Made by a program: the position numbers and the translations under genes. The notes under the pieces were generated by a model that was not told where the DNA came from, did no database searches, and worked only from the letters and a program-made list of their open reading frames with translations. DNA of 64,000 nt, taken from Candidatus Omnitrophota bacterium. Its GTDB lineage: Bacteria > Omnitrophota > Gorgyraeia > Pluralincolimonadales > Pluralincolimonadaceae. This document shows, piece after piece, positions 4,890 to 56,601 of this stretch (positions are counted from its first letter, which is position 1; each line of letters begins with the position of its first letter). The DNA lies in contig JAQUPL010000002.1 of NCBI GenBank assembly GCA_028716565.1, positions 96,670 through 160,669 on the forward strand. The letters run 5' to 3'.

Positions 4890-4891
4890 AA

Positions 4892-5212: not shown

Positions 5213-5227
5213 GCTAAAGACCGGAAA

Positions 5228-8876: not shown

Positions 8877-8879
8877 ACC

Positions 8880-11455: not shown

Positions 11456-12169
11456 ATGTATGCTGGCGATGAATTAATAAAAGAATTTGTGCCGAATAAT
11501 GAATGTAAACAAATTTCCTCGACTTTTTTTCTCGATTTATTATTAAAAGATACGAAAATAGAAAAAATATTAGACCTAGGCTGCGGCAAAGGAGATTCTG
11601 TAGATTACTTCAGGAAGAAAGACCCTGAAATACAATGGGTCGGCCTTGACATTCAATCGTCTCCGGAAGTCGGGGCCAGGAAAAGGACAGACGCCGCATT
11701 TGTCACATTTAACGGAAGAGAAATCCCTTTTGCGGACGGATATTTTGATATTATATATTGCAATCAGGTATTAGAGCATGCAGAGAAACCGGAAGAGCTT
11801 ATCAATGAGGCGACAAGAGTATTAAAGAAAGGCGGTTTCTTGGTCGGTTCGACATCCCATCTGGAGCCGTTTCATTCCTTGAGTATGTATAATTTTACCC
11901 CTTACGGTTTCAGCCTCATGGTTAAGGCTCCTCTGAAATTAAAGGAGATAAGGCCGGGCATAGATGTGTTTACCCTCATATTCTCGCGAATATTCAAACG
12001 GGTACCACTTTTGTCTCAGCTGTTATCGAGCTATTTCGAAAATGAATCACCCTTCAATTTCATGATGACCGTAGCGGGGAAAATGACCGGCAGGTCAGAT
12101 CAGTATATTAACCTTGCGAAACTGTTATTTTGCGGTCACTTCAGGTTTTTAATACAAAAAGACGGATAA
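11456..12169 (+). CDS. class I SAM-dependent methyltransferase
   Basis: SAM motif I ILDLGCGKGDS and a post-motif region DIIYCNQVLEHAEKPEEL. Confidence 0.7.
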   Translation: MYAGDELIKEFVPNNECKQISSTFFLDLLLKDTKIEKILDLGCGKGDSVDYFRKKDPEIQWVGLDIQSSPEVGARKRTDAAFVTFNGREIPFADGYFDIIYCNQVLEHAEKPEELINEATRVLKKGGFLVGSTSHLEPFHSLSMYNFTPYGFSLMVKAPLKLKEIRPGIDVFTLIFSRIFKRVPLLSQLLSSYFENESPFNFMMTVAGKMTGRSDQYINLAKLLFCGHFRFLIQKDG

Positions 12170-13450: not shown

Positions 13451-13489
13451 AGTCATGCATATGAAATTCCAAAAAAAATCGCTCGTATT

Positions 13490-17233: not shown

Positions 17234-17234
17234 T

Positions 17235-18455: not shown

Positions 18456-18468
18456 ATAGAGAGGTTAT

Positions 18469-20106: not shown

Positions 20107-20121
20107 TTTGAGGGAGGCAAG

Positions 20122-21258
20122 ATGAAGCCGCAAAAAATTAAGGTCATCTTGATATTCGGTACGCGCCCCGAGGTGATCAAGTCCGCTCCGGTAGTGAAGG
20201 AGTTGCGGAAATATCCAAAATCGATCGAGTCCAAAGTGATAATCAGCGCACAACACAGGAAAATGGCAGACCAATTCCTAGGTCTTTTCAAGATAAAGGC
20301 CGATTTCGATTTGAATATAATGCGACCTAATCAGACGCTCTTTGACGTTACTGGGAGGTGCCTGAAAAAACTGGAAGATATTTTAAGGAAAGAGAAGCCT
20401 CATCTCGTCCTGGTCCAGGGGGATACCACTACTTCTTTTACAGCCAGCCTGGCAGCTTATTACCTGAAGATAAAAGTCGGTCACGTAGAAGCAGGCCTTC
20501 GGACTGACGATAAATACAGGCCGTTTCCGGAAGAAATGAACAGAAGGCTTGTCAGCGCCATAGGGGATTTCCATTTTTCACCAACGACGAAAGCCAGGCA
20601 AAATCTTATAAAGGAGGGGATAAACCCTTCAAGCATCTACGTCACCGGTAATACCGTTATAGATTCGCTATTGGAAGTAGCGAGGAGAAAGTTTAGATTC
20701 GATGACCCGTTTTTGCAGAAGATCTGTTCTGGTAAAAGGAAGATAATATTAGTTACCGCTCACAGGAGAGAAAGTTTCGGAAAGCCCCTGGAATCCATAT
20801 GCGAGGCCCTTAAAGAGATAGCCCGACTCTATGATGTTGAAATTATATACCCTGTCCATCTCAACCCCAATGTCCAGGTGCCTGTAAGGAAAATTCTTGC
20901 AGGTATAAAAAATATCCATCTTATTGAGCCGTTGGAGTACGAGCCGTTTATTCACCTGATGAAAAGAAGTTATATAGTATTAACAGACTCAGGCGGAGTT
21001 CAAGAGGAGGCCCCTTCATTAGGGAAACCTGTCCTAGTCATGAGGGAAGTGACTGAACGTCCGGAGGGCATTAAGGCGGGGTGCGCAAAACTTGTCGGAA
21101 TGGATAAGAAAAGGATAATTTCCGCCGTTAAGAAGCTCCTGAATTCCAAGCCGGCATACAACAAGATGGCCAAATCGGTAAATCCGTATGGCGACGGGAA
21201 AGCAGCGAAAAGGATAGTGAGCGTTATTTTGCACTCAAGAAAAAGGCTTGTCAGGTAG
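20122..21258 (+). CDS. wecB: UDP-N-acetylglucosamine 2-epimerase (non-hydrolysing)
   Basis: IFGTRPEVIK, HVEAGLRTDDKYRPFPEEMNRRL and the overall WecB/MnaA architecture. Confidence 0.9.
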   Translation: MKPQKIKVILIFGTRPEVIKSAPVVKELRKYPKSIESKVIISAQHRKMADQFLGLFKIKADFDLNIMRPNQTLFDVTGRCLKKLEDILRKEKPHLVLVQGDTTTSFTASLAAYYLKIKVGHVEAGLRTDDKYRPFPEEMNRRLVSAIGDFHFSPTTKARQNLIKEGINPSSIYVTGNTVIDSLLEVARRKFRFDDPFLQKICSGKRKIILVTAHRRESFGKPLESICEALKEIARLYDVEIIYPVHLNPNVQVPVRKILAGIKNIHLIEPLEYEPFIHLMKRSYIVLTDSGGVQEEAPSLGKPVLVMREVTERPEGIKAGCAKLVGMDKKRIISAVKKLLNSKPAYNKMAKSVNPYGDGKAAKRIVSVILHSRKRLVR

Positions 21259-21261
21259 ACT

Positions 21262-22401
21262 ATGGCTGCATGGCTATTTTGGTTTTCGATAGGTCTAGTG
21301 GCGACTAGTTATTTCGGCTATCCTTTTATTATGGCCGTGTTAGCAGCTGTTTTGAAAAAGCCCTATGAAATAAAAGATATAGAACCATACGTTAGCTTGA
21401 TCATTCCTGCCCATAATGAGGAAAAAGTTATAGCCGATAAGCTTAATAATGCCCTGTCTCTGGACTATCCCCGGGATAAGTTCGAAATCTTGTTAATTCT
21501 GGATGGTTGTATTGATAAGACTAAAGCAATCGCCGCGGGTTACAAAGATTCTCGGCTGAAATTAATCGAGCAAAACCCCAGAAAAGGCAAAATGGCCGCC
21601 CTGAATTTAGCAGTTCCGCAAGCCAAGGGTGATATAGTCGTATTTACCGACGCGAATTCCCTCTACGAGAAAGATGCCATAAGAAAACTAGTAAGGAATT
21701 TTGCCGATAAAAGAATAGGTTGCGTGTGCGGAGAATTAAAATATCGCAACGAATCTCTGGTAGGAGAGGGCGAAGACCTGTATTGGAAATATGAAAAATT
21801 CATAAAGACAAACGAAAGTCGCTTATATTCTTTATTAGTAGTGAACGGTTCCATATATGCCATAAGGAAAGACCTGTTCGAACCGGTCGAAGAGACCCTG
21901 GCAGATGACTTTGTGGTACCCATGGTCATAGCCAAAAAGGGATACGGCCTTGTATATGAACCTGAAGCAGTTACCCTGGAAAAGACCGCAGCGAGCACAA
22001 AAGAAGGAATAAGCCAGAAAGCCAGGATCATCGCGCAGGGGCTTAAAGCCGGTTTTGCTGTCGGCCGGATCATTGTTTTGTCAGGGCCTCTGAGATTATT
22101 TCAATTCCTGTTCCATAAGTTTATCCGCTGGTTTGTTCCCGTTTTTTTAATTATAATGTTTCTATCCAATATATTTTTACTGAACGAGCCGTTCTATAAA
22201 GTTATATTTTTGTGCCAAGGTCTATTTTACATATTCGCGGCGATCGGCCATTTACTGGAAAAAAATAACGTAAAGATAGGCATCTTCAAAATCCCGCTTT
22301 ATTTTTGTGTGGTCAACTTGGCCTCGGCCATCGGTATAATCAAGTTTTTGACAGGCGGGATAAAGGCAACCTGGGAAAAAGCGGAAACAACAAGAGGATA
22401 A
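21262..22401 (+). CDS. glycosyltransferase family 2 (membrane-anchored)
   Basis: SLIIPAHNEE, ILDGCIDKT and a DxD-like TDANS motif, plus C-terminal TM helices. Confidence 0.75.
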   Translation: MAAWLFWFSIGLVATSYFGYPFIMAVLAAVLKKPYEIKDIEPYVSLIIPAHNEEKVIADKLNNALSLDYPRDKFEILLILDGCIDKTKAIAAGYKDSRLKLIEQNPRKGKMAALNLAVPQAKGDIVVFTDANSLYEKDAIRKLVRNFADKRIGCVCGELKYRNESLVGEGEDLYWKYEKFIKTNESRLYSLLVVNGSIYAIRKDLFEPVEETLADDFVVPMVIAKKGYGLVYEPEAVTLEKTAASTKEGISQKARIIAQGLKAGFAVGRIIVLSGPLRLFQFLFHKFIRWFVPVFLIIMFLSNIFLLNEPFYKVIFLCQGLFYIFAAIGHLLEKNNVKIGIFKIPLYFCVVNLASAIGIIKFLTGGIKATWEKAETTRG

Positions 22402-22404
22402 ACC

Positions 22405-23442
22405 ATGATCAGGTATTTCTTAACCTCATTTTTCATCTCCGCGGCGGCGGCGATCGTCTTTACCCCTATAGTCAGAAGGTTGGCGCTGGCGTTAGGGGTT
22501 GTCGACAAACCCGGCGGCCGGAAGGTGCACCGGCAGAACATGCCGACTTTGGGCGGGATAGCGATAGCCGCGGCGTTTTTCGCGGGCATAACCGTCGCTT
22601 TTAGGGCAGTGCCGGGGGCGATGGGCACATTTTCACTGAAATTTGCGGGATTATGCGTAGGCAGCGCGATCATCCTGCTGCTGGGGGTGATAGATGATAT
22701 CGTACCGCTCAAAGCGAAATTGAAACTCGTCTTCCAGGTCATAGCCGCTTCTATCCTGATCGGATGCGGATTTACGGTTGAAGAAGTGACCATACCGTTT
22801 TACGGAAAATTCTCCCTCGGGATCTCCGGGGCCGTTTTTTCGATGCTCTGGATAGTCGGCATCGTCAATGCCATAAACCTTCTCGACGGACTTGACGGGC
22901 TCGCTGCCGGCGTCTCGGCGATAGCCTCGTTTTTTATCTTCCTGTCAGCCGTCGAACAGCACGATTATGTAGTGGCTTTCCTGGCTTTCGCCCTTACCGG
23001 CGCTTGCGCGGGATTCCTGCCGTTCAATTTTTATCCGGCGAGAATATTTATGGGGAATCCGGGAAGTATGTTCCTTGGATTTATACTGGCGGCGATATCC
23101 ATAGTCAGTTTCCAAAAAAGTAGTACCGTGATAACTCTATTTATCCCGGTAATAGCCCTGGGCGTCCCTATAATCGATACCTTGCTTGCCATCGTCCGCC
23201 GCCTGGCAAAAAAGAAACACATCTTTCAGGCCGACAAGGAGCACATCCACCATAAACTCCTTTTCCGTGAGGAATCCCAGAGGAGGGTGGTGCTCTCTCT
23301 TTATTTCCTGTCGGTCTGTTTCGGGATGATCGCCCTGAGCTTCAGGGGCATAAAAGGCCTTTATGCTATTATCGCTCTGGGCGTCGTGATCTTAGTGACT
23401 TATAAGTGGATGAAAGATTCCGGCTTCCTCGATTTTAGGTAA
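22405..23442 (+). CDS. MraY/WecA-family polyprenyl-phosphate N-acetylhexosamine-1-phosphate transferase
   Basis: IVNAINLLDGLDGLAAG and the multi-TM architecture, consistent with an initiating glycosyl-1-P transferase. Confidence 0.8.
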   Translation: MIRYFLTSFFISAAAAIVFTPIVRRLALALGVVDKPGGRKVHRQNMPTLGGIAIAAAFFAGITVAFRAVPGAMGTFSLKFAGLCVGSAIILLLGVIDDIVPLKAKLKLVFQVIAASILIGCGFTVEEVTIPFYGKFSLGISGAVFSMLWIVGIVNAINLLDGLDGLAAGVSAIASFFIFLSAVEQHDYVVAFLAFALTGACAGFLPFNFYPARIFMGNPGSMFLGFILAAISIVSFQKSSTVITLFIPVIALGVPIIDTLLAIVRRLAKKKHIFQADKEHIHHKLLFREESQRRVVLSLYFLSVCFGMIALSFRGIKGLYAIIALGVVILVTYKWMKDSGFLDFR

Positions 23443-23490
23443 TTTATTATCCTTGACAAAATTGCTTAATTGTAGTAAATTTTAAGGACA

Positions 23491-24321
23491 ATGGAATGTT
23501 CTTTAGCGATAAAAGGAATTGCCAGCACAAGGATCCTGCAGGAGCTTCAGGGCGCGTTCCTGAAGTTTACGGGCATGGAATTCTCTTTCGTGGACCTGAA
23601 GGGGAAGCCCGTGATAATCTCGCAGTATGCCGGGCATTCCTGTAAAGCCCTCCTCTCGTCGAAGAAAAAAGATTCCGCGTTCCCGGACGTCGTAACTAAA
23701 TCGTGCAATTCCCTCTCCGGCTCGAAGAAACCCGTTATTTCCGAATATAATAAAACACCGCTGGCGTTCGTCCCTATAATAATAGAGGGGAACGCGATAG
23801 GCGCGGTCTTGATGTGCCCCGGCGGCAGCCAGGCCGCCAATGCCGGGATATCGAAGGAGCAATTCAAAAGCGCGGCCGAGCTTTTATTCATTTTTGTAAA
23901 TTATGTGTTTAAGCATGAATTCGACTTCCTGGTCGTTTCCGATACAGACAAGCAGTATTCGCGCAACCAGGAAGCGGTCCTTAAAGCTGTAGCGTTCATA
24001 AAGAAAAACTACCACGACAAGGACATATCCCTCCAGAAAGTAGCCGCGGAAGTCGCCCTGAGCCATTACTATTTCAGCCATATTTTCAAGGATGAGCTTA
24101 AGATCACTTTTATAGAATATTTGACGAAGGTCAGGATGGAAGCTTCGGCCAAGCTTTTGAAAAACCGCAACCTGAATGTTAACCAGATCGCGTATGCCGT
24201 TGGATACCAGGACCCGAATTATTTCAGTAAAGTTTTTAAAAGATACATGAAAACCTCCCCGATCGAATACAGGAACAATATGCTGAGAAAGGGGACAGAA
24301 AAACAAATAATTACGGCATAA
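23491..24321 (+). CDS. AraC-family transcriptional regulator with N-terminal PocR-like sensor domain
   Basis: C-terminal AraC HTH (LQKVAAEVALSHYYFSHIFK...IAYAVGYQDPNYFSKVFKRY). The N-terminal region resembles PocR. A promoter-like TTGACA sits upstream. Confidence 0.75.
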   Translation: MECSLAIKGIASTRILQELQGAFLKFTGMEFSFVDLKGKPVIISQYAGHSCKALLSSKKKDSAFPDVVTKSCNSLSGSKKPVISEYNKTPLAFVPIIIEGNAIGAVLMCPGGSQAANAGISKEQFKSAAELLFIFVNYVFKHEFDFLVVSDTDKQYSRNQEAVLKAVAFIKKNYHDKDISLQKVAAEVALSHYYFSHIFKDELKITFIEYLTKVRMEASAKLLKNRNLNVNQIAYAVGYQDPNYFSKVFKRYMKTSPIEYRNNMLRKGTEKQIITA

Positions 24322-24336
24322 AAGCAACAAAACCCA

Positions 24337-24364
24337 TTGACACTGTTTACTTTTGTGTTATACT
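24337..24364 (+). promoter_or_regulatory. sigma70-like promoter upstream of the PilZ gene
   Basis: TTGACA (24337-24342), a 16-nt spacer, then TATACT (24359-24364). Confidence 0.5.
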
Positions 24365-24396
24365 AACCTTAATTTATTGCAGCACAAGGAGAAAGA

Positions 24397-24864
24397 ATGT
24401 CAGAACGCAGAAAGTATAAACGTGTCGACGTGAATGTTGCTATTAAGGGTAAGCTCATCGACCCCCAGAAAAAGGTCGATATTACCGGCGACATCCTGTT
24501 GAAGGCGAAAAATTTAAATGAAGGGGGCGCTTTGCTTGAATGGCCGCGCTCCTGGGATTGCGAATCCTGCTCTAATTGCCTCGGCTGGGTGCATAATTCC
24601 ACCTGCAAACTTAAGGAAGGCGGGCAAAGGGACAGCGAATTTAACAAGGATCTGGTCCCGGGGATGCATATCACTATACGTATAGTGCCGGGAAACGATA
24701 TAGAGCCGGTAAATGCTTTGGGTAAAGTAAGCTGGGTCAGGTCCGCAGGAAGCGAGAGGGCAGACAGCTATAATGTCGGGGTCTCTTTCGTTGAAGATGA
24801 AAAGCAGGAACCGGACATCAAAAAGAAGATCCTGGTCATAAAGAAAAGTTTCGAAACAACTTAG
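24397..24864 (+). CDS. PilZ domain protein (putative c-di-GMP receptor) with Cys-rich insertion
   Basis: RRKYKR followed by NLNEGGA fits the PilZ RxxxR...(D/N)xSxxG motifs. Also carries CESCSNC...C. Confidence 0.55.
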   Translation: MSERRKYKRVDVNVAIKGKLIDPQKKVDITGDILLKAKNLNEGGALLEWPRSWDCESCSNCLGWVHNSTCKLKEGGQRDSEFNKDLVPGMHITIRIVPGNDIEPVNALGKVSWVRSAGSERADSYNVGVSFVEDEKQEPDIKKKILVIKKSFETT

Positions 24865-25737
24865 ATGCTGAGTTTTTCTGTCTGGTCGATAACATTCAGG
24901 ATGATCGCCAAGTATCCCCGCGTCCTTATCCCGTTTTTTATCAAAGCGATATTCGAAGCCCTGGCGCTTACCGTATTTTTTTATTCACCCCGTTCGCCTT
25001 TACTGGCTATCTTCGGGCCGCCCATTACATCGTTCTTTACCACTAGGACCCCGTCGGGGGTTATTTCCGGGGCGCGTTATCTGCACTATCCCATCAACTT
25101 CGAGCTTCTCCCTACTCTTTTTTATTACGGCCAGATCTTCGTTATGATAACCGTCGGAGCGGTAATGTACGGCATGGCGATGGGGATGGTGTCACAGGCC
25201 CACTCGGAAGGCGGGGAGGTCAAGATATTCGGCAATTTTAACAGGTCCCTGAGGCGCTATTTAGCCTTGGTCGGCGTATGGCTTATAACTTTTATCCTCT
25301 CTCTCGCGATCCTGAAGCTTCCGCCGCTGATCATAACAAAATTGATGCCCCCGACGCCGACGGCGATGTTGCTGCTCCGTATACTGTCCTATGCGGGTAT
25401 CGTAGTCATTTTCGTTATCGAGGCGCTCTTTATCTACGCATATCCTGCCGTCATCATCGAGCGGAAAAGCTTTTTCGGGGCCATCGGAAGGTCGTTTAGC
25501 GTCATAAGGCATGTTTTCTTGACGACGGTCGTGCTGGTCTTTGTCCCGAGATTATTTGAGTTTTTGTATGTATTCGTCAGGCAGAAACAACAGGGCCTTA
25601 TGAACCTGACGGTTCCCGAGGCAACCCTCGTTATCTTAGGCGTAAGCATCGTACTCACCCTGGTCACCGACGCGCTGGTCTTTTTAAGCGCCGCGAATCT
25701 TTTTATCCTTAAGCAGGAAACGGAAAAAGGGGCGTAA
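24865..25737 (+). CDS. hypothetical polytopic membrane protein
   Basis: Six or more hydrophobic helices. Immediately follows the PilZ gene. No family recognised. Confidence 0.4.
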   Translation: MLSFSVWSITFRMIAKYPRVLIPFFIKAIFEALALTVFFYSPRSPLLAIFGPPITSFFTTRTPSGVISGARYLHYPINFELLPTLFYYGQIFVMITVGAVMYGMAMGMVSQAHSEGGEVKIFGNFNRSLRRYLALVGVWLITFILSLAILKLPPLIITKLMPPTPTAMLLLRILSYAGIVVIFVIEALFIYAYPAVIIERKSFFGAIGRSFSVIRHVFLTTVVLVFVPRLFEFLYVFVRQKQQGLMNLTVPEATLVILGVSIVLTLVTDALVFLSAANLFILKQETEKGA

Positions 25738-25739
25738 AG

Positions 25740-26588
25740 TTGCTCAAGAAGACGATTATCATACCGTTTATTTTCGCCGCAGCCGTAATGCTGAACGGCT
25801 GCGATTCGGGGACATATTCCGCCGAAAAAAGATTCTGGCATGCTTCCAAGGTGTTCAACCAGTTGTTGAAGGCCCCGGACAAAGCGACGCCGGTCGATTA
25901 CCAGAAGATCATCGACTCTTTCCGCGAGATAACCATCCGGTACCCGATGTGGCCTAACAGCGGGCAGGCGCAATTTAATATAGGCCAGCTCTATGCCATG
26001 CAGGGGAATTTTTCCAAGGCGAGGGATGAATTCATGGTCATCCTTAAGGATTACGCGGCGAACACCGATCTGTGCGCCAGGAGCCTTTTTGCGGCGGCGT
26101 TGGTATATGAGAGGGAGGATAACTGGCCCAAGGCGAAAGAAACTTTCGACAGGTTAGAAAAAGACTATACCGACACAGGGACGGCATTCCAGGTGCCGCT
26201 GCATGTCGCCGAGTATTATAAAGTAAAAGGGAAGAACGCCGAGGCGGACGCCGCTTATCTCGTTGCGCTGGATAAATACAAGAAGATGATCAAGGACAGG
26301 CCTAAGACCTACGGCGCCCTGCTTACGATCGACCTGGTGGTAAATTGTTATACCGACCAGGAGAAATGGAATGAGGCCGTGGATTATTTAGGCGGCCTCG
26401 TCAACGACTATCCTGATACCCTGCTTGCCCCAAAGGCCAAACTCATACAGGCCGCTATCTATGAGCAGAAACTCAACCAACTAGAAAAGTCGCGCGAGCT
26501 TTACGACGAAATAATCAAGAATTACTCCAAGACGCCGTTCGCGAAAACCGCCCAGCAGCAGGTCGAAAGGCTTAATAAGCCCAAATAA
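25740..26588 (+). CDS. TPR-repeat lipoprotein
   Basis: Lipoprotein signal (AAAVMLNGCDSG) and TPR-like repeats. Lies immediately upstream of the exosortase gene. Confidence 0.6.
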   Translation: MLKKTIIIPFIFAAAVMLNGCDSGTYSAEKRFWHASKVFNQLLKAPDKATPVDYQKIIDSFREITIRYPMWPNSGQAQFNIGQLYAMQGNFSKARDEFMVILKDYAANTDLCARSLFAAALVYEREDNWPKAKETFDRLEKDYTDTGTAFQVPLHVAEYYKVKGKNAEADAAYLVALDKYKKMIKDRPKTYGALLTIDLVVNCYTDQEKWNEAVDYLGGLVNDYPDTLLAPKAKLIQAAIYEQKLNQLEKSRELYDEIIKNYSKTPFAKTAQQQVERLNKPK

Positions 26589-26589
26589 G

Positions 26590-27429
26590 ATGAAGAATAT
26601 TTCCAGGTATGGTCCGATAATAGTCGCGGCCCTTTTAATGCTGATATACCTGCCTACTTTTGTATGGATGAAAGCCCGTTTTGATGAAGTGGAATCGTAT
26701 TATTCCCACGGATACCTCGTCCCCCTGGTTTTTGCTTACCTTATCTGGATGAAGAGGGATGAACTGAGAAAATGCGCTATTAAACCCGCCGGCCTGGCAT
26801 TGCTTATTTTCGTTCCCGCGCTCCTGGTCCATCTCCTGGCCTATTTCTTCGAGATCAATTTCGTATCGGGATTTACCCTTATTGCGGCGATATTCGGCCT
26901 CGCATTGTATCTGTACGGGCCGGATATCGCTAAAAAGACGGCTTTCCCTGTCATATTTTTAATATTTATGGTCCCCCTGCCCCAGGTCATGATAATAAAT
27001 ATAAGTTTTAAAATGAAGATGATGGCCGCGCAGGTCGCGACAGGCATCGTTAACCTCATTGGCATACACGCCGTAAGGGACGGGAGCATAGTTTACCTTA
27101 AGCCGGACACTTCGCTGACAATAGGAAGCCCGTGCAGCGGGCTGAGTTCCCTGATCGCGCTGACGGCGTTAGGCGCGCTATACGCTTACCTGGCAAAGAT
27201 GTCCGGGTCGAGGAAAATTATCCTTTTCCTCCTGTCGATACCGATAGCCTTGGCGGCTAACATATTCAGGATAGTCATGCTTCTTCTTGTGGGTTTCGCG
27301 TATGACGCGAAAGTGGCGACCGGTCCGTTTGTGCACGGTTTCCTGGCGTTCTTACTTTATATCTTCGCTATCGCAGGGTTATTAATAGTAGGGAGAATGT
27401 TGTCGTGGGCAAAAATGAACGCAACCTAA
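26590..27429 (+). CDS. exosortase (XrtA/EpsH family)
   Basis: 8-TM protein with an N-terminal W...YSHGYLVP...W..R motif, the catalytic-Cys motif GSPCSGLSSL and NIFRIV (Asn/Arg). Followed by EpsI and PEP-CTERM genes. Confidence 0.8.
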   Translation: MKNISRYGPIIVAALLMLIYLPTFVWMKARFDEVESYYSHGYLVPLVFAYLIWMKRDELRKCAIKPAGLALLIFVPALLVHLLAYFFEINFVSGFTLIAAIFGLALYLYGPDIAKKTAFPVIFLIFMVPLPQVMIINISFKMKMMAAQVATGIVNLIGIHAVRDGSIVYLKPDTSLTIGSPCSGLSSLIALTALGALYAYLAKMSGSRKIILFLLSIPIALAANIFRIVMLLLVGFAYDAKVATGPFVHGFLAFLLYIFAIAGLLIVGRMLSWAKMNAT

Positions 27430-28055
27430 TAATCGCGATCGTCATCTTAGCCGCTTGCGGGGCGTGTGTCTTCGGGATCTCTACCGTCAAAAGGGCCCCG
27501 TCCCGGGCCGTAAAATTAATGGAGTTCCCCCTTAATCTCGGCGAATGGACAGGGAAGGATATCAAGTTCGAAGATAAGGAATACGAAAAACAGGTTTACG
27601 AGATACTCGGCACAGACAAGGTCCTGATCAGGGCATACTCGGACAGGAAGAATGAGTCGGCCGCGGTACAGGTGGTCTATTCCGACCAGAAGAGGCAGAG
27701 TTTCCATCCGCCCGAATATTGCTACCTGGGAAGCGGCGCAAACGAGCTTTTAGAGACAGGCAAGGCGCAGGTCGCGCTTGACGGCGGCAAGGTTTTGCAG
27801 GTAAACAGGACAGTATACCAGACGAAAAGGGGAAAGGTGCTGATGCTCGATTGGTATACCGCCGGAGATATGATGACGGGTAATTATTATAAACAACAGA
27901 TGTATTTCATGATCAACCAGCTTAAGCGCGCGAAAAGCGGGGGTTCGGCCGTAAGGGTCTGGACGCCGATAATAGGAAATGATGTTGACGCCGCGTTCGA
28001 CAGGTGCCGGCGCTTGATACGCGAGATGGTAAAACTCCTTCCCGATTACCTATAA
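27405..28055 (+). CDS. exosortase-associated EpsI family protein
   Basis: N-terminal TM helix and an HPPEYCYLGSG motif characteristic of EpsI. Overlaps the exosortase 3' end. Confidence 0.8.
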   Translation: MGKNERNLIIAIVILAACGACVFGISTVKRAPSRAVKLMEFPLNLGEWTGKDIKFEDKEYEKQVYEILGTDKVLIRAYSDRKNESAAVQVVYSDQKRQSFHPPEYCYLGSGANELLETGKAQVALDGGKVLQVNRTVYQTKRGKVLMLDWYTAGDMMTGNYYKQQMYFMINQLKRAKSGGSAVRVWTPIIGNDVDAAFDRCRRLIREMVKLLPDYL

Positions 28056-28085
28056 ATAATACTAAAAAATAGCAATTTTTTTCTC

Positions 28086-28114
28086 TTGACATACTTACCC
28101 TCGTGGGGTATAGT
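28086..28114 (+). promoter_or_regulatory. consensus sigma70 promoter for the PEP-CTERM gene
   Basis: TTGACA (28086-28091), a 17-nt spacer, then TATAGT (28109-28114). Followed by a leader of about 137 nt and the RBS AAAGGAGGAGGTGG. Confidence 0.65.
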
Positions 28115-28257
28115 AGCAATGTCATAAACACGTGTCGAAGCGTACACCGCAGCACATGCTTCCGAAAATAAATCGCAACCTTTTGAATAGAGCATTAGTT
28201 TAATCCGTGGATAAACACGTTTCGACGAAAGGTAACTAAAAAAGGAGGAGGTGGAAG

Positions 28258-28935
28258 ATGGGAAAGTTTTTGTTAGTGGTATTGGTAGCGTTAATGTTAG
28301 CGTTACCAACGATGGCCCAAGCTGCTCCTGCGATATCTTCTTGGCCGGGCTACGTTTATAAAGATGGCGGCTATGCCGGAAACCTGTATTCGCCATCGGG
28401 ATGGATGGGTCAGCACTCAGCCATGAGTTTAGCCGTTACCACGAGTTCTTCTGAAACGGCTGTCAGCGGCACATCAACCAAGATAAGTTTTACATCCGGT
28501 ACCTCGGCTTCAGAGTGGACCGGTGTCTATTGGCTGTCGCCTGACGGCAACTGGGGTAGTGACGCTAACGGCGGTTGGAATTTGACCGGCGCGGGCAATA
28601 TGACGTTCTGGGCAAAAGGCGCTGTCGGCGGAGAGAAGATGGAATTCAAGATAGGCGGTATCGCCGGGGATTACGGGGATACGCTGGCCGGTATGACGCA
28701 GACGGTTACTCTCGCTCCTGTCTGGACGCAGTATTCTTTCGATTTAACCGGCAAGGATCTAAGCCGTGTGGTCGGCGGTTTTGAATTTGCCGCCAACGAT
28801 ACCGATAACCCGACCGGCGCTACATTCTACGTCGATGACGTTCAATACAACGCCGTTCCTGAACCTGCGAGCCTGTTACTGCTCGGCAGCGGTTTAGTAG
28901 GGTTAGTTGGTTTGACAAAAAAGAGAAAAGCGTAA
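28258..28935 (+). CDS. PEP-CTERM sorting-domain protein (secreted, Gly/Ser/Thr-rich)
   Basis: Signal peptide. C-terminal VPEPASLLLLGSGLVGLVGLTKKRKA is a complete PEP-CTERM signal: the PEP motif, a TM helix and a basic tail. Confidence 0.85.
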   Translation: MGKFLLVVLVALMLALPTMAQAAPAISSWPGYVYKDGGYAGNLYSPSGWMGQHSAMSLAVTTSSSETAVSGTSTKISFTSGTSASEWTGVYWLSPDGNWGSDANGGWNLTGAGNMTFWAKGAVGGEKMEFKIGGIAGDYGDTLAGMTQTVTLAPVWTQYSFDLTGKDLSRVVGGFEFAANDTDNPTGATFYVDDVQYNAVPEPASLLLLGSGLVGLVGLTKKRKA

Positions 28936-49177: not shown

Positions 49178-51250
49178 ATGGTAAAGGTAAGGTTCGCCCC
49201 GTCTCCGACGGGTTTTCTCCACATAGGAAGCGCGCGGACCGCGCTCTTCAACTGGCTCTTTGCCAGGCACATGAAAGGCACTTTTGTCTTCAGGGTGGAG
49301 GACACCGACAGGGAGCGCTCGAAAGACGAATTCCTTCAGGAAATAATATCTTCGCTCGAATGGATGGGGATGAATTGGGACGAGGGGCCGTTTTACCAGA
49401 CGAAACGGCTCGATGTCTACCGCGAATACGCCAAAAGGCTGCTTAAAGAAGGAAAGGCGTATGAGGCGGAAGGGACGCTTGGCGGCGAGAAAGCGGTGAT
49501 CCTTACCATGCCAAAAGTGACGATGACGATGGATGACATCGTCCACGGCCCGGTCTCCTTCGATATGAACCTGCAGAAAGACCTCGTACTCATGAAGTCG
49601 GACGGATTTCCCGCCTATAATTTCGCGTGCGTCATCGACGATCATGACATGAAGATCACCCATGTGATACGCGGCGACGACCATATATCGAATACGCCGA
49701 AACAGCTGGCGGCCTACCAGGCTCTCGGTATCGAGCCGCCGAAATTCGCGCATATACCCCTTATACTGGGGACGGACCGTTCGCGGATGTCAAAACGCCA
49801 CGGCGCGACTTCTATCTCGGAATACAAAGAGATGGGTTTCCTTCCCGACGCCCTCGTCAATTACATCTCCCTTTTAGGCTGGGCGCCGACAGGCGACCGC
49901 GAGGTGATGCCGATCGACGAGATAATAAAGGAATTTTCCCTCGAGAGGGTCGGGAAGACCGGCGCCGTATTCGATATAGACAAACTGATCTGGATGAACG
50001 GCGAATATATCAGGGCAAAAAAGACGGAGGACCTGGTCCCATTCGTCGCGCCGAGGCTTAGAGAGAAAGGCGTAATAGGAGACGACTACGATAAGGTGCG
50101 GCTCAAGGAGGCGGTGGAGCTTTTTCATCCCCGCGCGAAGACGATCGCCGAACTAGCCGATTCGACCGCTCCGTTTTTCACAGACGACGTGGTTTACGAC
50201 GAAACCGCGGTCGCTTCTGTACTCGCCAAGGAAGGGGTAAAGGCAAAACTGGAGGCTGTTATCGCGAAATTCGGGCCGCTCAAGGCGTTCGATCCGCAGG
50301 CGCTCGAGGCCTGCGTCAGGGACCTTGCCTCGGAGTCGGGCGTTAAGGCGGCGGATCTCATACATCCGGTCCGCGTAGCCGTCACTGGCCGGAAGGTTGG
50401 CGCGAGCCTCTTCGAGACCCTTTCCCTTATCGGAAAAGAAAAGACGTTGGCGCGCCTTAAAGCGGGCCTCGCGAAGGCCTTATCGGTCGTGATGGCGGCC
50501 GGGCTTTTGATGACATGCCGGGATCTGCGGGCGGAGAAGATATACTACAAAGACGGAACTAAGGTCACGGAACAGGTGATCGGCCGTGATAAGAGATCGG
50601 TCTGGATCAAAGACCCCTCGGGGAATATCGCCGTAAACCCGGATCGCATACAAAAGATCCTGAATGATGACGGGTCGGTCTCCAAGTATGATTACGGGAC
50701 GATACTGAGGACGATAGAAGAGAAAGTGAGGGCCGGAAATTACAATGAGGCCGCGGACTTATGCGACCTTTTAGTGCAATCGTTCCCGAAGAGCAACGAG
50801 GTCCATTACCTTCGGGCGGTGCTTAACCAGAAGGCCGGAAGATTTTCCAAGACCGCAGAAGATTACAAATTCATAATCGACAGCAAGTATAGCGACGCCA
50901 AGGTCTTTAACAACCTCGGCGCGATATACGCCGCGGATAAAGACAACCGCAGCGCGATGGAGATGTTCAAGAAAGCCGCGGAGATGAACGGCGATATGCC
51001 AGAAGTCCATTATAACCTCGCCTTCCTGTTCCTGCAGGAGAAGGACTACGATAAAGCGATAGATGAATACAATAAAGTGATAGCCAAGGAGCCCGATAAC
51101 ACCACGGCCTTGTATAATCTCGGCGTAGCCTGCGCGTTTAAGGGGGATTTTGCCGGGGCGAGGGAGCGGTTCGAAAAAGTCATCGCGATAGACAAAGGCG
51201 ACGAAAGCGCGACGAAAGCGCTTAAGGCGCTTTTGAGAAAAAATAAGTAG
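49178..51250 (+). CDS. gltX: glutamate--tRNA ligase with in-frame C-terminal hydrophobic segment plus TPR-repeat extension
   Basis: Class I HIGH (PSPTGFLHIG) and KMSKS-like (RMSKRHG) motifs in the first ~440 aa. The frame then continues through ALSVVMAAGLLMTC into about 240 aa of TPR-like repeats with no intervening stop. Confidence 0.8.
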   Translation: MVKVRFAPSPTGFLHIGSARTALFNWLFARHMKGTFVFRVEDTDRERSKDEFLQEIISSLEWMGMNWDEGPFYQTKRLDVYREYAKRLLKEGKAYEAEGTLGGEKAVILTMPKVTMTMDDIVHGPVSFDMNLQKDLVLMKSDGFPAYNFACVIDDHDMKITHVIRGDDHISNTPKQLAAYQALGIEPPKFAHIPLILGTDRSRMSKRHGATSISEYKEMGFLPDALVNYISLLGWAPTGDREVMPIDEIIKEFSLERVGKTGAVFDIDKLIWMNGEYIRAKKTEDLVPFVAPRLREKGVIGDDYDKVRLKEAVELFHPRAKTIAELADSTAPFFTDDVVYDETAVASVLAKEGVKAKLEAVIAKFGPLKAFDPQALEACVRDLASESGVKAADLIHPVRVAVTGRKVGASLFETLSLIGKEKTLARLKAGLAKALSVVMAAGLLMTCRDLRAEKIYYKDGTKVTEQVIGRDKRSVWIKDPSGNIAVNPDRIQKILNDDGSVSKYDYGTILRTIEEKVRAGNYNEAADLCDLLVQSFPKSNEVHYLRAVLNQKAGRFSKTAEDYKFIIDSKYSDAKVFNNLGAIYAADKDNRSAMEMFKKAAEMNGDMPEVHYNLAFLFLQEKDYDKAIDEYNKVIAKEPDNTTALYNLGVACAFKGDFAGARERFEKVIAIDKGDESATKALKALLRKNK

Positions 51251-51285
51251 TTTGATATTTCTCAGAGATGTGATAAAATTATAGT

Positions 51286-52497
51286 ATGAAAAGAGTTATG
51301 CGATATAATAGGTCCGGGATAAGGGCGTTTACCCTAGTCGAGATATTGATCGCGCTCGCGGTAGTAGGGGTCCTTTTTGGCCTTATATTCGCCTTCTACA
51401 GGTCCGCCATAGACAGGTCCAAGTATGTTGGGGCCGTCGCCACGGTAGATTCTATCAGTAAGGCCGAAGAGATAAGCCAGATGAATACCGGCGAGTATGT
51501 GGCTGCCGCCGACACGCAAGAGGTAAACGAAAAACTCGGGCTGGATATAGAATCGAAAGAATATAATTTTAAGGTTATCGGGGTAACGAACGATAATTTC
51601 ATCGTCCTGGCGGAAAAGATACTAGATGATATCAATAGCGGAGACCTTTCTTCGGATCAGGCCGTAATAGCCAGGGATAAAACCGGGCCGATCCCTCCGG
51701 AATCGGTCGATACCCAAGGAGATGAAACCTCTCCCGGAGAAAATAGTCCCCCCGGCGGTGATTCTCCCGGCGGCGGTAGTCCGGGCGGCGGGGCTCCTTC
51801 GGGCGAAAGCAGCCCGGTTAGCACCCCGGGCGGGGGCGGAAGCCCTACCGGCGGCGGGATCCGGACGATAAGGCCGCGCCAAAGCACCCTCAGCGCCGAC
51901 ATATTAAATTTACTGGACGGCACTATCTCAGGACAGTGGGCGCTCGACCTTATCGCTAACAATAGCATAAAAGTAGTCTATGTCGACATTAATGATTACG
52001 GCCTTTCGGGCGCTTTGGCTTTTTGGGGAGGCACAAGAGATGGTTATATAGTCGTCGACAGGCATAACGTATTCGTAACAGGCAACACGATATTCGTAAA
52101 CGAGAACCTTCCCGCGCTTGGGTATCCCGATACCGCCATAGCTTCCATAATCACGCATGAAGCTACTCATGCCGATTACGATTATCATCCCCAGGCATGG
52201 ATAGACGCGACTAAACTCGCGCATCCGGAATTGACGGATAGCGACATCCATATAACCAAGTATCCGGGAGATTCCATAGACCAGGAATACCAGGCTTTTA
52301 ATAACGCCACGACCACCTGGAGGGAAATAAGGGGAGCCGATAGAAATACCGAAATGGATGATTGGATCACGCTCCAGGATACGCCTCCTCCGCCTATAGA
52401 TATAGGGCCGGAAGCGGCCATGAAAGCTGAGATCAGGACCAGGTATCCGACCAATCCGCCGATACCGATAGGATCGGGCGGGTTGCCGGAATATTGA
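51286..52497 (+). CDS. prepilin-type (type IV pilin-like) protein with G/S/P-rich linker and C-terminal metzincin-like zinc-metallopeptidase motif
   Basis: Class III signal IRA|FTLVEILIALAVVGVL. A low-complexity segment TSPGENSPPGGDSPGGGSPGGGAPSGESSPVSTPGGGGSPTGG. HEATHADYDYH has the HExxHxxGxxH spacing with Gly replaced by Tyr. Confidence 0.6.
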   Translation: MKRVMRYNRSGIRAFTLVEILIALAVVGVLFGLIFAFYRSAIDRSKYVGAVATVDSISKAEEISQMNTGEYVAAADTQEVNEKLGLDIESKEYNFKVIGVTNDNFIVLAEKILDDINSGDLSSDQAVIARDKTGPIPPESVDTQGDETSPGENSPPGGDSPGGGSPGGGAPSGESSPVSTPGGGGSPTGGGIRTIRPRQSTLSADILNLLDGTISGQWALDLIANNSIKVVYVDINDYGLSGALAFWGGTRDGYIVVDRHNVFVTGNTIFVNENLPALGYPDTAIASIITHEATHADYDYHPQAWIDATKLAHPELTDSDIHITKYPGDSIDQEYQAFNNATTTWREIRGADRNTEMDDWITLQDTPPPPIDIGPEAAMKAEIRTRYPTNPPIPIGSGGLPEY

Positions 52498-52516: not shown

Positions 52517-53113
52517 ATGAAAAAATCGGCAGTAACGGTTTTTATTTTATTATTAGGAGCGGCCTATATGGTTACTTGTAGCGGTTGTTCCGGAGCGGGC
52601 AAATATAAAAAATATTCCAGCACAGACCCGGAGCTTAATTTAACGATGTACTATATCCCGGGTTGGGAGTTCAGCGAAACGCGCGGCGCCCATAACAGCT
52701 ATGTTGATGTCTATTTTGGCGAACCGTGGGACAAGGTAAGGGCAAAGACGCGCAGGGCATCCATCGAAGTCGTCTCTTTCCAGGTGCCGAAGACCGGGAC
52801 GCCGGATATCTCGGCCCTTGCCGAGGGGATTGCCGCCGGTAAATTAAGATTGAATGACGGTAAATTGCTCGGAAAGGCGAAGATAAAACTTCCGGCGGGA
52901 GAGGCGATGGACCTTTCTTTTTCCTTTAAGGCCCCGGACAGGCTCTATAACACAAGCTCTAAACTGTTGACTGTAAAAGAAAGGGTCGTGATCTTAAAGA
53001 ACGGCGACAGCCTTTATACCGTCAAATACCAGAACAGGGAAGAGGCTTTTGACAAATATAGCAAAGATTTCAACAATATAGTAAGGTCGATAAGGTTTAA
53101 AGTGAAAAGGTAA
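52517..53113 (+). CDS. hypothetical lipoprotein
   Basis: Lipoprotein signal LLLGAAYMVTCSGC. No family recognised. Confidence 0.4.
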   Translation: MKKSAVTVFILLLGAAYMVTCSGCSGAGKYKKYSSTDPELNLTMYYIPGWEFSETRGAHNSYVDVYFGEPWDKVRAKTRRASIEVVSFQVPKTGTPDISALAEGIAAGKLRLNDGKLLGKAKIKLPAGEAMDLSFSFKAPDRLYNTSSKLLTVKERVVILKNGDSLYTVKYQNREEAFDKYSKDFNNIVRSIRFKVKR

Positions 53114-55185: not shown

Positions 55186-55524
55186 ATGGATGTATACTTT
55201 GTTAACAGCAAATTGGGAAAGATTTTTAATAGCGAGAGGAATTTGCGAAAAAAATATGGCCCAATTTCAGACAAGATTAAACAAAGGCTAGCCGAGCTTA
55301 GGGCGGCTAGTACCTTATCGGAAGTATCTCAGTATCCGCCCGCCAGATGTCACGAGCTAAAAGAAAACCACAAAGGACAATTCGCAGTTAATGTTAGTGA
55401 AAATAAAAGATTGATATTCGTACCCCATAACCACCCTACTCCTCTCAAAGTTGATGGTGGCATAGATTTAACTAAGGTTACTGAGATTTGTATCATAGAC
55501 GTACTGAATTACCACCAAACTTAA
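55186..55524 (+). CDS. higB: HigB-like toxin (RelE/ParE superfamily, plasmid-killer type)
   Basis: 112 aa. ...CHELKENHKGQFAVNVSENKRLIFVP...EICIIDVLNYHQT parallels HigB (LHPLKGDREGYWSIRVN..RI.F...GDAYILNYEDYH). Immediately followed by an HTH antitoxin gene. Confidence 0.65.
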   Translation: MDVYFVNSKLGKIFNSERNLRKKYGPISDKIKQRLAELRAASTLSEVSQYPPARCHELKENHKGQFAVNVSENKRLIFVPHNHPTPLKVDGGIDLTKVTEICIIDVLNYHQT

Positions 55525-56601
55525 ATGTATAACACAAAAAAATATAAATTTAATCCTGATTATGCTGTTGCTCCCGGGGAGACGGTATTAGAATACCTCA
55601 ATCATCTAGGGATGACTCAAGCAGAATTGTCTACTAGAACGGGCAGACCATTAAAAACAATTAATGAGATTATAAAAGGGAAACAAGCCATAACACCGGA
55701 AACTGCGCTGCAATTCGAAAGAGCGCTTGGAATGACTGCTAGCTTCTGGAATAATCTCGAAAAAAATTATCGTGAAGTATTAGTTGGCAATAGAGAAACT
55801 CGACTTCTAGGAAATCATCTTGAATGGCTTAATAAAATACCAGTTAATGGCATGATAGCCAATGAATGGATAAAGAAATGTGACAACCCTGTTTATCAAT
55901 TGCAGGAAGTTTTATCTTTTTTTGGAGTTGCAAGCCCAAGAGAATTATCTGCAAACTGTTCTCAGGTTGTTTATAGACAATCCAAAAAATTAAGAGGTGA
56001 CCCTTGGGCAATTTGCGCATGGTTAAGAGAAGGGGAGTTAGTAGCTCAAGCCATAACTTGCGATGCTTATGATAGTGCGAAATTCCGTGCCGCTTTAAAT
56101 ACAATAAGAGGAATGACGGTAGAACCTATTTCTGATGTTTTGGTTAAATGGCAAAGTCTTTGCGCTGAATGCGGAATCGCTCTAGTTCTTGTGAAGGAAC
56201 TCCCAAATTTAAAAGTTAATGGCGCTACTCGTTGGATATCAAAAGACAAAGCCGTTATTCAGCTTTCATTGTTATATAAGTTTGCCGATATATTTTGGTT
56301 TACTTTTTTTCATGAAGCAGGCCATATATTATTGCATGGCAAAAAAGAAGTCTTTATTGAAAGCCATGGTAAAGAAAACAATAATGAAAAAGAAGCAGAT
56401 GAATTTGCAGAAAATATTCTGATACCAAAACGTGAATATAGTACATTTATTAATGCAGATAGTTTTACTTATGAAGATATTATAAAATTTTCTAAAAAAA
56501 TTGATATTTCCCCAGGAATTATACTTGGTCGTTTGCAATTTGAAAAGAGAGTACCTTACAATAGTTTTAGTAGTTTAAAACAAAGATTTTGCTGGAAGTG
56601 A
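55525..56601 (+). CDS. higA: HigA-like XRE-HTH antitoxin fused to ImmA/IrrE-family (COG2856) zinc-metallopeptidase domain
   Basis: N-terminal HTH (AVAPGETVLEYLNHLGMTQAELSTRTGRPLKTINEIIKGKQAITPETALQFERALGMTASFW). C-terminal HEAGHILLH (HExxH) together with ...EKEADEFAENILIP is typical of ImmA/IrrE peptidases. Confidence 0.65.
   Translation: MYNTKKYKFNPDYAVAPGETVLEYLNHLGMTQAELSTRTGRPLKTINEIIKGKQAITPETALQFERALGMTASFWNNLEKNYREVLVGNRETRLLGNHLEWLNKIPVNGMIANEWIKKCDNPVYQLQEVLSFFGVASPRELSANCSQVVYRQSKKLRGDPWAICAWLREGELVAQAITCDAYDSAKFRAALNTIRGMTVEPISDVLVKWQSLCAECGIALVLVKELPNLKVNGATRWISKDKAVIQLSLLYKFADIFWFTFFHEAGHILLHGKKEVFIESHGKENNNEKEADEFAENILIPKREYSTFINADSFTYEDIIKFSKKIDISPGIILGRLQFEKRVPYNSFSSLKQRFCWK

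What the first reader, a model, noticed from the sequence alone, without database searches (positions are those of the whole stretch)
51286..52497. Type IV pilin-like protein fused to a metzincin-like zinc-protease motif
The N-terminus is a textbook prepilin leader (RA|FTLVEILIALAVVGVL, Glu at +5), followed by a pilin-sized globular region and a 45-residue G/S/P linker. The C-terminal domain carries HEATHADYDYH, which has exactly the HExxHxxGxxH spacing of metzincins but with Tyr in place of Gly. Pilins and pseudopilins carrying an enzymatic zincin domain are not a described class. If real, the enzyme would be exposed at the tip or side of a pilus or T2SS pseudopilus. The window also has two major-pilin-like genes (3877..4819) and a secretin (7245..8876) but no assembly ATPase.
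Basis: seen in the sequence. Interest (0 to 1): 0.75.

Follow-up and report, generated by a model that had tools for sequence, protein, structure and literature searches.

The report
Pilin carrying a new zinc-protease-like domain
This Omnitrophota gene joins a genuine type IV pilin module, through a long flexible linker, to a previously unclassified zinc-protease-like domain (thermolysin/M48-like, not metzincin-like), and it always sits between the same two partner genes, which points to a lineage-specific envelope or pilus-borne protease system.

Summary
The ORF is real (51286..52497, 403 aa; NCBI annotates it from Met5). Its N-terminal module is a true type IV pilin, above the Pfam and TIGRFAM cut-offs, and a family profile matches solved pilins at about 1e-10. 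A 58-residue Gly/Pro/Ser linker follows.

The metzincin reading fails. The third His (H301) occurs in 1 of 82 relatives, the Gly position is Tyr, and there is no invariant Met. The invariant residues are H291, E292, H295 and E334, a gluzincin-type signature closest to M48 and minigluzincins.

- The gene belongs to a conserved triad: periplasmic TPR protein, then pilin-zincin, then a roughly 195-aa lipoprotein.
- The carrier module is type IV-pilin-like in most relatives and Flp/TadE-like in others.

Modular pilins are already a described class, so this is a new variant of that class. Catalysis, metal binding and filament incorporation were not tested.

The parts
51252..51279 (+). Sigma-70-like promoter match (TTGATA, 16 nt, TAAAAT, with TG) directly upstream of the ORF
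   Evidence: Consensus scan, 10 of 12 matches. This is a pattern match only. It suggests the true start may be Met5 (51298), as NCBI annotates.
51286..52497 (+). Pilin-zincin ORF, 403 aa including the stop codon (alternative start 51298, 399 aa)
51286..51327 (+). Class III (prepilin) leader peptide, aa 1-14, with predicted cleavage at A14|F15
   Evidence: PF07963 and TIGR02532 score above their cut-offs. The motif is aligned with relatives. Cleavage itself is inferred.
51328..51684 (+). Type IV pilin module, aa 15-133: hydrophobic alpha1N (aa 15-37, Glu19 = +5), then the rest of alpha1 and a small beta-sheet head
   Evidence: A family profile (A2) matches solved type IV pilins at E 2.5e-10 to 2e-9. 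Against N. meningitidis and N. gonorrhoeae PilE it aligns profile positions 7-130 with pilin residues 1-118. No structure was predicted for this part.
51685..51858 (+). Gly/Pro/Ser-rich flexible linker, aa 134-191
   Evidence: Composition. Relatives have equivalent Gly-rich linkers of variable length.
51868..52494 (+). C-terminal zincin-like domain, aa 195-403, a new family with no Pfam or NCBIfam model
52156..52179 (+). HEATHADY, aa 291-298: predicted metal ligands H291 and H295, catalytic base E292, conserved D297 and Y298
   Evidence: H 81/81, E 79/81, H 80/81, D 76/82, Y 75/82. Lies in predicted helix 88-106 of the domain.
52186..52188 (+). H301, the supposed third metzincin histidine; not conserved
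   Evidence: His in 1 of 82 relatives; Asn 50, Tyr 19.
52273..52290 (+). SIDQEY, aa 330-335, with invariant E334, the predicted third metal ligand on the 'glutamate helix'
   Evidence: E 80/81, S 75/81, Q 74/81, Y 74/81. At the N-terminus of predicted helix 137-154. Its role as a ligand is inferred; the model coordinates could not be inspected.
52483..52494 (+). Conserved extreme C-terminus LPEY-COOH
   Evidence: The last residue is Tyr or Phe in 80 of 81 relatives. 52 of 83 end in [LIVMF]x[EDNQ][YF]. Function unknown.
50468..51250 (+). Upstream partner: periplasmic TPR protein, here the C-terminal about 260 aa of the 690-aa GltX ORF 49178..51250
   Evidence: 42% identical to the stand-alone TPR protein of L003. 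A TPR gene lies directly upstream of the pilin-zincin gene in most loci where the upstream DNA is present. Stand-alone versions have Sec signal peptides ending ..A|EKIYYKDG.
52517..53113 (+). Downstream partner: 198-aa lipoprotein with weak PsbP-like similarity
   Evidence: A homologue lies directly downstream in nearly all loci with downstream DNA. PF01789 at E 3.3e-4, below its cut-off. No NCBIfam hit.

Best explanation
The gene encodes a modular type IV pilin whose payload is a new family of gluzincin-type (HExxH plus Glu) zinc metallopeptidase-like domains.

Shown by computation:
- A class III signal peptide and a complete small pilin module.
- A 58-residue flexible linker.
- A confidently predicted alpha/beta domain whose best structural matches are zincins.
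- Invariant H291, E292, H295 and E334.
- A fixed three-gene module (periplasmic TPR protein, pilin-zincin, lipoprotein) across Omnitrophota.

Inferred mechanism:
1. The protein is inserted into the inner membrane. A prepilin peptidase cleaves it at A14|F15, and it stays anchored by its alpha1N helix.
2. It then behaves as a minor subunit of a type IV filament (type IVa pilus, or Tad pilus for the Flp-type relatives). It most likely sits at the tip, so the linker-tethered protease is carried across the periplasm and presented at or beyond the cell surface.
3. H291, H295 and E334 bind zinc, and E292 activates the water.
4. The co-conserved partners handle the enzyme before export. The lipoprotein is a candidate periplasmic inhibitor, immunity protein or docking partner. 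The TPR protein is a candidate chaperone or receptor, possibly for the conserved LPEY-COOH tail.

Whether the enzyme acts on prey or host surfaces or on the cell's own envelope is not resolved.
For: Pilin module:
- PF07963 and TIGR02532 score above their cut-offs.
- The A2 family profile matches solved major pilins at E about 1e-10, with alignment across the head domain of PilE.
- Glu+5 is at least 90% conserved in A2.

Conserved fusion:
- 87 representative hits, mostly 360-440 aa with the domain in the C-terminal half.
- About 45 have GFTLxE-type N-termini and about 16 have Flp-type G-x4-E-Y N-termini; some are TadE-like.
- The carrier is therefore always a type IV filament subunit, but of interchangeable class.

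Zincin domain:
- AF2 pLDDT 91.5 with a beta-sheet, then the HExxH helix, then further helices.
- The best Foldseek matches are M48 proteins, but not significant.
- The profile against PDB sequences gives selecase first, E 0.07.
- hhalign against an Omnitrophota M48 gives 75% probability, E 2.6e-5.
- Pfam clan-mates are hit below threshold in many members.
- Invariant residues are listed.

Triad.

Precedent and host biology:
- Modular pilins are incorporated into pili (PMC8179133).
- Type IVa pili are encoded by nearly all Omnitrophota, and Tad pili by many (PMC10066038).
Against: - No catalysis, metal binding, prepilin cleavage or filament incorporation has been tested.
- I could not open the model coordinates, so the H291/H295/E334 geometry is unverified.
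- The gene is not in a pilus gene cluster. Where the wider context could be read it lies among housekeeping genes (dxs, 2-oxoacid:ferredoxin oxidoreductase, gltX), and no pilus ATPase, platform protein or prepilin peptidase was found in the window.
- Its fixed partners are a periplasmic TPR protein and a lipoprotein, which suits a periplasmic complex at least as well as a pilus.
- Residue -1 is Ala, not Gly.
- A 23-kDa module can pass a secretin only if it is at the filament tip.
Confidence: 0.5

Rival explanations
1. It is a membrane-tethered periplasmic protease and not a filament subunit. The class III signal peptide and pilin module serve only as an inner-membrane anchor, possibly docking to the pilus or T2SS platform. 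The long linker lets the zincin reach through the periplasm, where it works with the TPR protein and the lipoprotein as an envelope quality-control or processing complex. This would be functionally like BepA (M48 plus TPR) and the lipoprotein protease LoiP of E. coli.
For: - The triad with a Sec-exported TPR protein and a lipoprotein is conserved in essentially every locus.
- The context is housekeeping, there are only one or two copies per genome, and no pilus genes lie nearby.
- The nearest sequence and fold relatives are envelope proteases of M48/M56 type.
- BepA being an M48 plus TPR protein is established knowledge (also bioRxiv 10.1101/2020.07.07.192476, listed).
Against: - A plain transmembrane anchor would suffice for this role. 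Yet the whole pilin head, the small -1 residue and Glu+5 are conserved.
- When the carrier module differs, it is replaced by another filament-subunit class (Flp/TadE-like), not by a generic anchor.
- The TPR similarity to BepA is generic: 22 bits against a cut-off of 570.
Confidence: 0.3
2. The HExxH domain is not a peptidase. It would instead be a metal-dependent enzyme of another kind (some HExxH-fold proteins are oxygenases, nucleases such as YbeY, or regulators), or a catalytically silent binding module displayed as an adhesin.
For: - No significant match to any curated peptidase family.
Against: - The full catalytic set of a gluzincin (His, Glu, His, plus a distal Glu) is invariant. So is the strand-then-helix arrangement NTIYVN...AHEATH that aligns with M48 and selecase.
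- The single relative that has lost HExxH (P0081) also lost E334. Joint loss is what a shared catalytic site predicts.
Confidence: 0.12
3. One reading: a metzincin-like protease in which three histidines of HExxHxxGxxH bind zinc, with Tyr replacing Gly.
For: The window sequence has His at exactly +10 (HEATHADYDYH).
Against: - That His is present in 1 of 82 relatives (N 50, Y 19, D 5, E 3, F 3).
- The obligatory Gly is absent throughout, and there is no invariant Met for a Met-turn.
- The same spacing occurs by chance in a non-coding frame of this window.
- ADAM17/ADAM10 (TACE-type) catalytic domains appear among the Foldseek matches only at E above 1.
Confidence: 0.02

Closest known systems
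Modular type IV pilins (S. sanguinis PilB with a vWA module and PilC with a lectin module; Raynaud et al. 2021, PMC8179133)
   Same: [quoted passage not shown] That paper predicts such modules are tip-exposed and lists 264 architectures, including one predicted peptidase module (IPR030392).
   Different: - The payload here is a zincin-like domain with no database signature, so it could not appear in that InterPro-based survey.
- The linker is much longer and of low complexity.
- The gene has two dedicated conserved partner genes.
- The same payload is also carried on Flp/TadE-like N-termini.
- Nothing here has been tested experimentally.
M48 peptidases (HtpX, Ste24, BepA) and the soluble minigluzincins (selecase, projannalysin, proabylysin)
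   Same: The order strand, 'xTIYIN', loop, helix with AHExxH, and an invariant Glu on a later helix. These are the best profile and fold matches. BepA also combines this protease type with TPR repeats.
   Different: - No member reaches the Pfam M48 gathering score.
- The family has its own motifs: HADY, HPELT, SIDQEY and a C-terminal LPEY.
- It is carried on a pilin, and the TPR is a separate protein.
Large minor pilins with extra domains (GspK, CofB, ComZ)
   Same: Pilin-fold subunits with bulky additional domains that sit at filament tips (as reviewed in PMC8179133).
   Different: Their extra domains are structural or binding modules, not enzyme-like, and are not separated from the pilin module by a long Gly/Ser/Pro linker.
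Metzincins (astacins, serralysins, adamalysins, MMPs)
   Same: They share HExxH and the general zincin architecture.
   Different: The defining Gly, third His and Met-turn are all absent from the family.

Membership tests
Type IV pilin / class III signal peptide protein | N-terminal prepilin cleavage/methylation motif that scores above the curated thresholds | tested here: met
   PF07963 22.2 bits (cut-off 21.2); TIGR02532 20.3 bits (cut-off 16.3).
Type IV pilin / class III signal peptide protein | Small residue at -1 (canonically Gly), Glu at +5, and about 20 hydrophobic residues | tested here: met
   RA|FTLVEILIALAVVGVLFGLIFAF. Residue -1 is Ala here and G, A or S in relatives. Glu+5 is at least 90% conserved.
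Type IV pilin / class III signal peptide protein | Long alpha1 helix plus a beta-sheet head (pilin fold) | tested here: inconclusive
   The sequence profile aligns with PilE residues 1-118 at E 5e-10.
Type IV pilin / class III signal peptide protein | Cleavage by a prepilin peptidase and polymerisation into a filament | not testable with these tools
   Needs experiment. No peptidase or assembly genes lie within the 64-kb window.
Modular pilins (sensu Raynaud et al. 2021) | A pilin module fused via a linker to an additional module not specific to pilus biology | tested here: met
   Pilin module aa 15-133, linker aa 134-191, zincin-like module aa 195-403. Definition taken from PMC8179133.
Metzincins | Extended motif HExxHxxGxxH, with the third His as zinc ligand and an invariant Gly | tested here: not met
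   The Gly position is Tyr (75 of 82). The third His is present in 1 of 82.
Metzincins | Conserved Met-turn downstream of the motif | tested here: not met
   No Met is among the invariant or at least 90% conserved columns of A1.
Gluzincins (HExxH plus a distal Glu ligand) | Invariant HExxH on a helix that follows a beta-sheet | tested here: met
   H291 81/81, E292 79/81, H295 80/81. Helix 88-106 of the domain follows strands 35-78.
Gluzincins (HExxH plus a distal Glu ligand) | Invariant Glu on a downstream helix that completes the metal site | tested here: inconclusive
   E334 is conserved 80/81 and lies 39 residues after H295, at the start of predicted helix 137-154.
Gluzincins (HExxH plus a distal Glu ligand) | Zincin fold recognisable by structure comparison | tested here: inconclusive
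Peptidase family M48 (PF01435) | Score above the Pfam gathering threshold | tested here: not met
   The window domain gives no hit. 14 of 45 relatives hit only below threshold, best E 1.6e-3. hhalign to one M48 protein gives 75% probability over the N-terminal half only.
PEP-CTERM sorting signal (considered because an exosortase is encoded in the window) | A PEP motif followed by a transmembrane helix and a basic tail | tested here: not met
   The protein ends at ...GGLPEY with nothing after the motif. There is no PF07589 hit.

The most novel reading that the evidence does not exclude
Omnitrophota, ultra-small bacteria thought to be predatory or parasitic, use type IV filaments (both type IVa and Tad) to carry an active metalloprotease out of the cell on a flexible tether. 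A dedicated TPR chaperone and a lipoprotein inhibitor would keep it harmless in the periplasm. This would be the first catalytically active pilin, a way of delivering enzymes by pilus, and a candidate tool for attacking host cell surfaces.
Probability: 0.25. Interest if true: 0.8.

Novelty: new variant of a known kind. Interest (0 to 1): 0.58.

Why it matters
Type IV filaments are known to present adhesins, lectins and DNA receptors. An enzyme grafted onto a pilin has only been predicted from domain signatures and never studied. Here the fusion is old and under selection: about 80 divergent clusters, invariant catalytic residues, two fixed partner genes, and a carrier module swapped between two pilin classes.

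It also defines a new zincin family, absent from Pfam and NCBIfam, in a phylum with no cultured free-living representative and a suspected predatory lifestyle. The hypothesis is concrete and testable: a recombinant domain, the E292A mutant, inhibition by the lipoprotein, and proteomics of the pilus fraction.

If the periplasmic reading is right instead, it would show a BepA-like envelope protease anchored by a pilin module. That would be a new use of the class III signal peptide in bacteria.

Tried and rejected
- **Single-sequence AlphaFold2 of aa 195-403** gave an unusable model (pLDDT 37.6). Only the run with the 45-sequence alignment was used.
- **Word-indexed homologue searches** found 1 and then 13 proteins. 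The exhaustive HMMER search was needed to see the family.
- **Pfam and NCBIfam** gave nothing for the C-terminal domain of the window protein. The PDB sequence search with the whole protein matched only the pilin part.
- **Fold libraries**: Foldseek against the PDB gave no significant match.
- **Metzincin reading**: rejected on conservation.
- **LPEY as a PEP-CTERM signal**: rejected, because nothing follows it.
- **H313 (HPEL) as third ligand**: judged unlikely, because it is His in only 56 of 82 relatives.
- **The secretin at 7245 as evidence for a local pilus machine**: rejected, because it heads an exosortase/EPS locus.
- **TPR partner as PilW/PilF-like pilotin or BepA-like**: all TPR hits are generic and far below their cut-offs.
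- **Flp-type N-termini**: these get no significant Pfam hit (TadE E 0.003 in one protein). That class is therefore assigned from the G-x4-E-Y motif only.
- **Literature searches** for pilin plus HExxH or metalloprotease returned nothing.
- **Not done**: I could not read the model coordinates.

Full report
**1. The observation**

The ORF 51286..52497 (+) is present and translates as described. NCBI holds the same protein starting at Met5 (51298; 399 aa; MDD5072296.1). It names it 'prepilin-type N-terminal cleavage/methylation domain-containing protein', from a Candidatus Omnitrophica MAG on a contig of 273,850 bp. A sigma-70-like promoter match lies at 51252..51279.

The N-terminus ...GIRA|FTLVEILIALAVVGVL... 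passes the curated thresholds of PF07963 and TIGR02532. The low-complexity linker is aa 134-191, and G, P and S make up 40 of residues 135-194. HEATHADYDYH is at aa 291-301.

The motif by itself is not beyond chance. The six-frame translation of the window holds four HExxH, two of them with His at +10, and one of those two lies in a non-coding frame. The case therefore rests on conservation and structure.

**2. The N-terminal module is a genuine pilin**

I aligned the first roughly 135 residues of 27 family members (A2). This profile matches solved type IV major pilins at E 2.5e-10 to 2e-9: M. xanthus PilA, Geobacter PilA-N, Neisseria PilE and T. thermophilus PilA. For PilE the alignment runs from pilin residue 1 to 118, so it covers the head domain. 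Glu+5 is at least 90% conserved. Residue -1 is G, A or S.

**3. The C-terminal domain is a new zincin-like family**

Residues 195-403 match no Pfam or NCBIfam model. The exhaustive HMMER search found 87 representative proteins, 58 of them at E<1e-10. Five of the 87 are repeat proteins that I set aside as spurious. Most of the rest are 360-440 aa with the domain in the C-terminal half.

In the alignments (A1, 45 sequences; a wider set of about 82) the following are invariant or nearly so:
- H291 (81/81), E292 (79/81), H295 (80/81) and E334 (80/81).
- D297 and Y298, giving the motif HEATHADY.
- S330, Q333 and Y335, giving SIDQEY.
- W345.
- An aromatic last residue (80/81).

H301, the supposed third metzincin ligand, is His in only 1 of 82 relatives (Asn 50, Tyr 19). 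The metzincin Gly position is Tyr, and no Met is conserved. The one relative that lacks HExxH (P0081) also lacks E334.

With alignment A1, AlphaFold2 gives pLDDT 91.5 and pTM 0.89. The model has a beta-sheet (strands within residues 35-78 of the domain), the last strand NTIFVN, then helix 88-106 carrying HExxH, helix 108-118, a variable loop, and helix 137-154 beginning at E334.

Evidence for the fold assignment:
- Foldseek finds nothing significant. Its best matches are M48 proteins (3c37, BepA).
- The A1 profile against PDB sequences puts the minigluzincin selecase first (E 0.07), aligned over NTIYIN...AHExxH.
- hhalign against an Omnitrophota M48 protein gives 75% probability.
- 20 of 45 members hit SprT-like and 14 of 45 hit Peptidase_M48, both below threshold.

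Conclusion: the fold is zincin, the signature is gluzincin-type, the nearest relatives are M48 and minigluzincins, and the domain belongs to no curated family. I could not read the model coordinates, so the role of E334 as third ligand is inferred from invariance and its position on a helix.

**4. The fusion and its partners are conserved**

Among full-length relatives about 45 carry a GFTLxE-type class III signal. About 16 carry a Flp-type G-x4-E-Y N-terminus, and a few carry a TadE-like GQSTLE N-terminus. The Flp and TadE classes are assigned from motifs only, because Pfam support is weak.

A scan of GTDB species representatives found 31 loci. Twenty-five are labelled Omnitrophota or Omnitrophica, five are 'uncultured Planctomycetia/Planctomycetales' MAGs, and one is labelled Patescibacteria.

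In nearly every locus with enough flanking DNA the gene order is TPR protein, pilin-zincin, then a lipoprotein of about 160-210 aa. One genome (L002) has two such pairs.
- The stand-alone TPR proteins have Sec signal peptides ending ...A|EKIYYKDG, so they are periplasmic.
- The lipoprotein has only weak PsbP-like similarity.
- The wider context is conserved only among close relatives: dxs, 2-oxoacid:ferredoxin oxidoreductase, gltX. The triad is therefore the unit under selection.
- No pilus assembly genes lie near it in the window.

**5. Mechanism**

I favour a modular minor pilin (confidence 0.5). It would be processed by a prepilin peptidase, held in the inner membrane by alpha1N, and incorporated into a type IV filament, probably at the tip. 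The tethered protease would then be carried outward.

The main argument is that the entire pilin module and its assembly residue Glu+5 are conserved. Where the carrier differs, it is another filament-subunit class rather than a plain anchor. The precedent is S. sanguinis PilB and PilC (PMC8179133). Omnitrophota almost universally encode type IVa pili, and many encode Tad pili (PMC10066038).

The two partners would handle a potentially dangerous enzyme in the periplasm. The lipoprotein would act as inhibitor or immunity protein. The TPR protein would act as chaperone, perhaps binding the conserved LPEY-COOH tail. Both roles are speculation by analogy with TPR proteins that bind C-terminal peptides and with periplasmic protease inhibitors, drawn from my own knowledge.

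The main rival (0.3) is a pilin-anchored periplasmic protease complex that works like BepA/LoiP. It fits the housekeeping context, the periplasmic partners and the M48-like affinity. It does not explain why a full pilin module is kept. A non-peptidase HExxH function (0.12) cannot be excluded. The metzincin reading (0.02) is refuted.

**6. Comparison with what is known, and novelty**

Modular pilins are a described class with 264 architectures, including one predicted peptidase module (IPR030392). The claim that no such class exists is therefore overstated. I found no zincin-pilin in that paper's table or in full-text searches. The payload has no family model.

This is a new variant of a known kind. 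It has a new zincin family as payload, a very long flexible linker, a dedicated three-gene module, and dual carrier classes, and it is restricted to one candidate phylum.

Interest is 0.58. The fusion is solidly conserved and the hypothesis is testable. The enzymology, the localisation and even the metal site remain predictions.

Noticed in passing
window 49178..51250: The 690-aa 'glutamate--tRNA ligase' ORF is GltX (about aa 1-430) running without a stop codon into the hydrophobic core and signal-peptidase site (..LMTCRDLRA|EKIYYKDG) of the periplasmic TPR partner protein. The same single ORF occurs in two other Omnitrophota genomes (L005 and L019, 689 aa). In L006 and L007 the two genes are separate and overlap by 4 nt. 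It is unclear whether this is a real cytoplasmic-periplasmic fusion or an internal start (GTG438/ATG439).
   Followed up: partly
window 7245..28935: A complete exosortase/PEP-CTERM polysaccharide locus:
- secretin-like gene
- Wzz/GNVR
- ParA/tyrosine-kinase-like ATPase
- Wzx
- several glycosyltransferases
- Wzy
- a TPR protein
- exosortase EpsH (26590..27429)
- DUF3485/EpsI
- a PEP-CTERM protein (28258..28935)

A secretin at the head of an exosortase locus is itself unusual.
   Followed up: partly
window 3805..7255: Two small pilin genes (one with a weak DUF1559 hit) are followed by a response-regulator, GAF and GGDEF diguanylate cyclase, just upstream of the secretin.
   Followed up: no
window 55186..56601: A HigB-like toxin gene directly followed by an HTH_3 plus Peptidase_M78 (IrrE-like) gene. 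This holds the only other in-frame HExxH in the window (HEAGH at 56311).
   Followed up: no
L002 5666..7695: A second, divergent copy of the pair in one genome. It is a 474-aa pilin with a very long Gly-rich linker, an extra Fn3-like segment and a shortened zincin domain (HEGTHAWWDH, lacking the HPELT segment), followed by its own lipoprotein paralogue.
   Followed up: partly
L017 5246..6399: The pilin-zincin gene is split into two overlapping ORFs (271 and 123 aa). This is either a frameshift or pseudogene, or an assembly error.
   Followed up: no
window 52483..52494 and family-wide: The proteins end exactly at a conserved L-P-E/D-Y/F carboxy-terminus, and the last residue is aromatic in 80 of 81. 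A conserved extreme C-terminus suggests a recognition tail (TPR binding, autoinhibition or sorting). I could not test this.
   Followed up: partly
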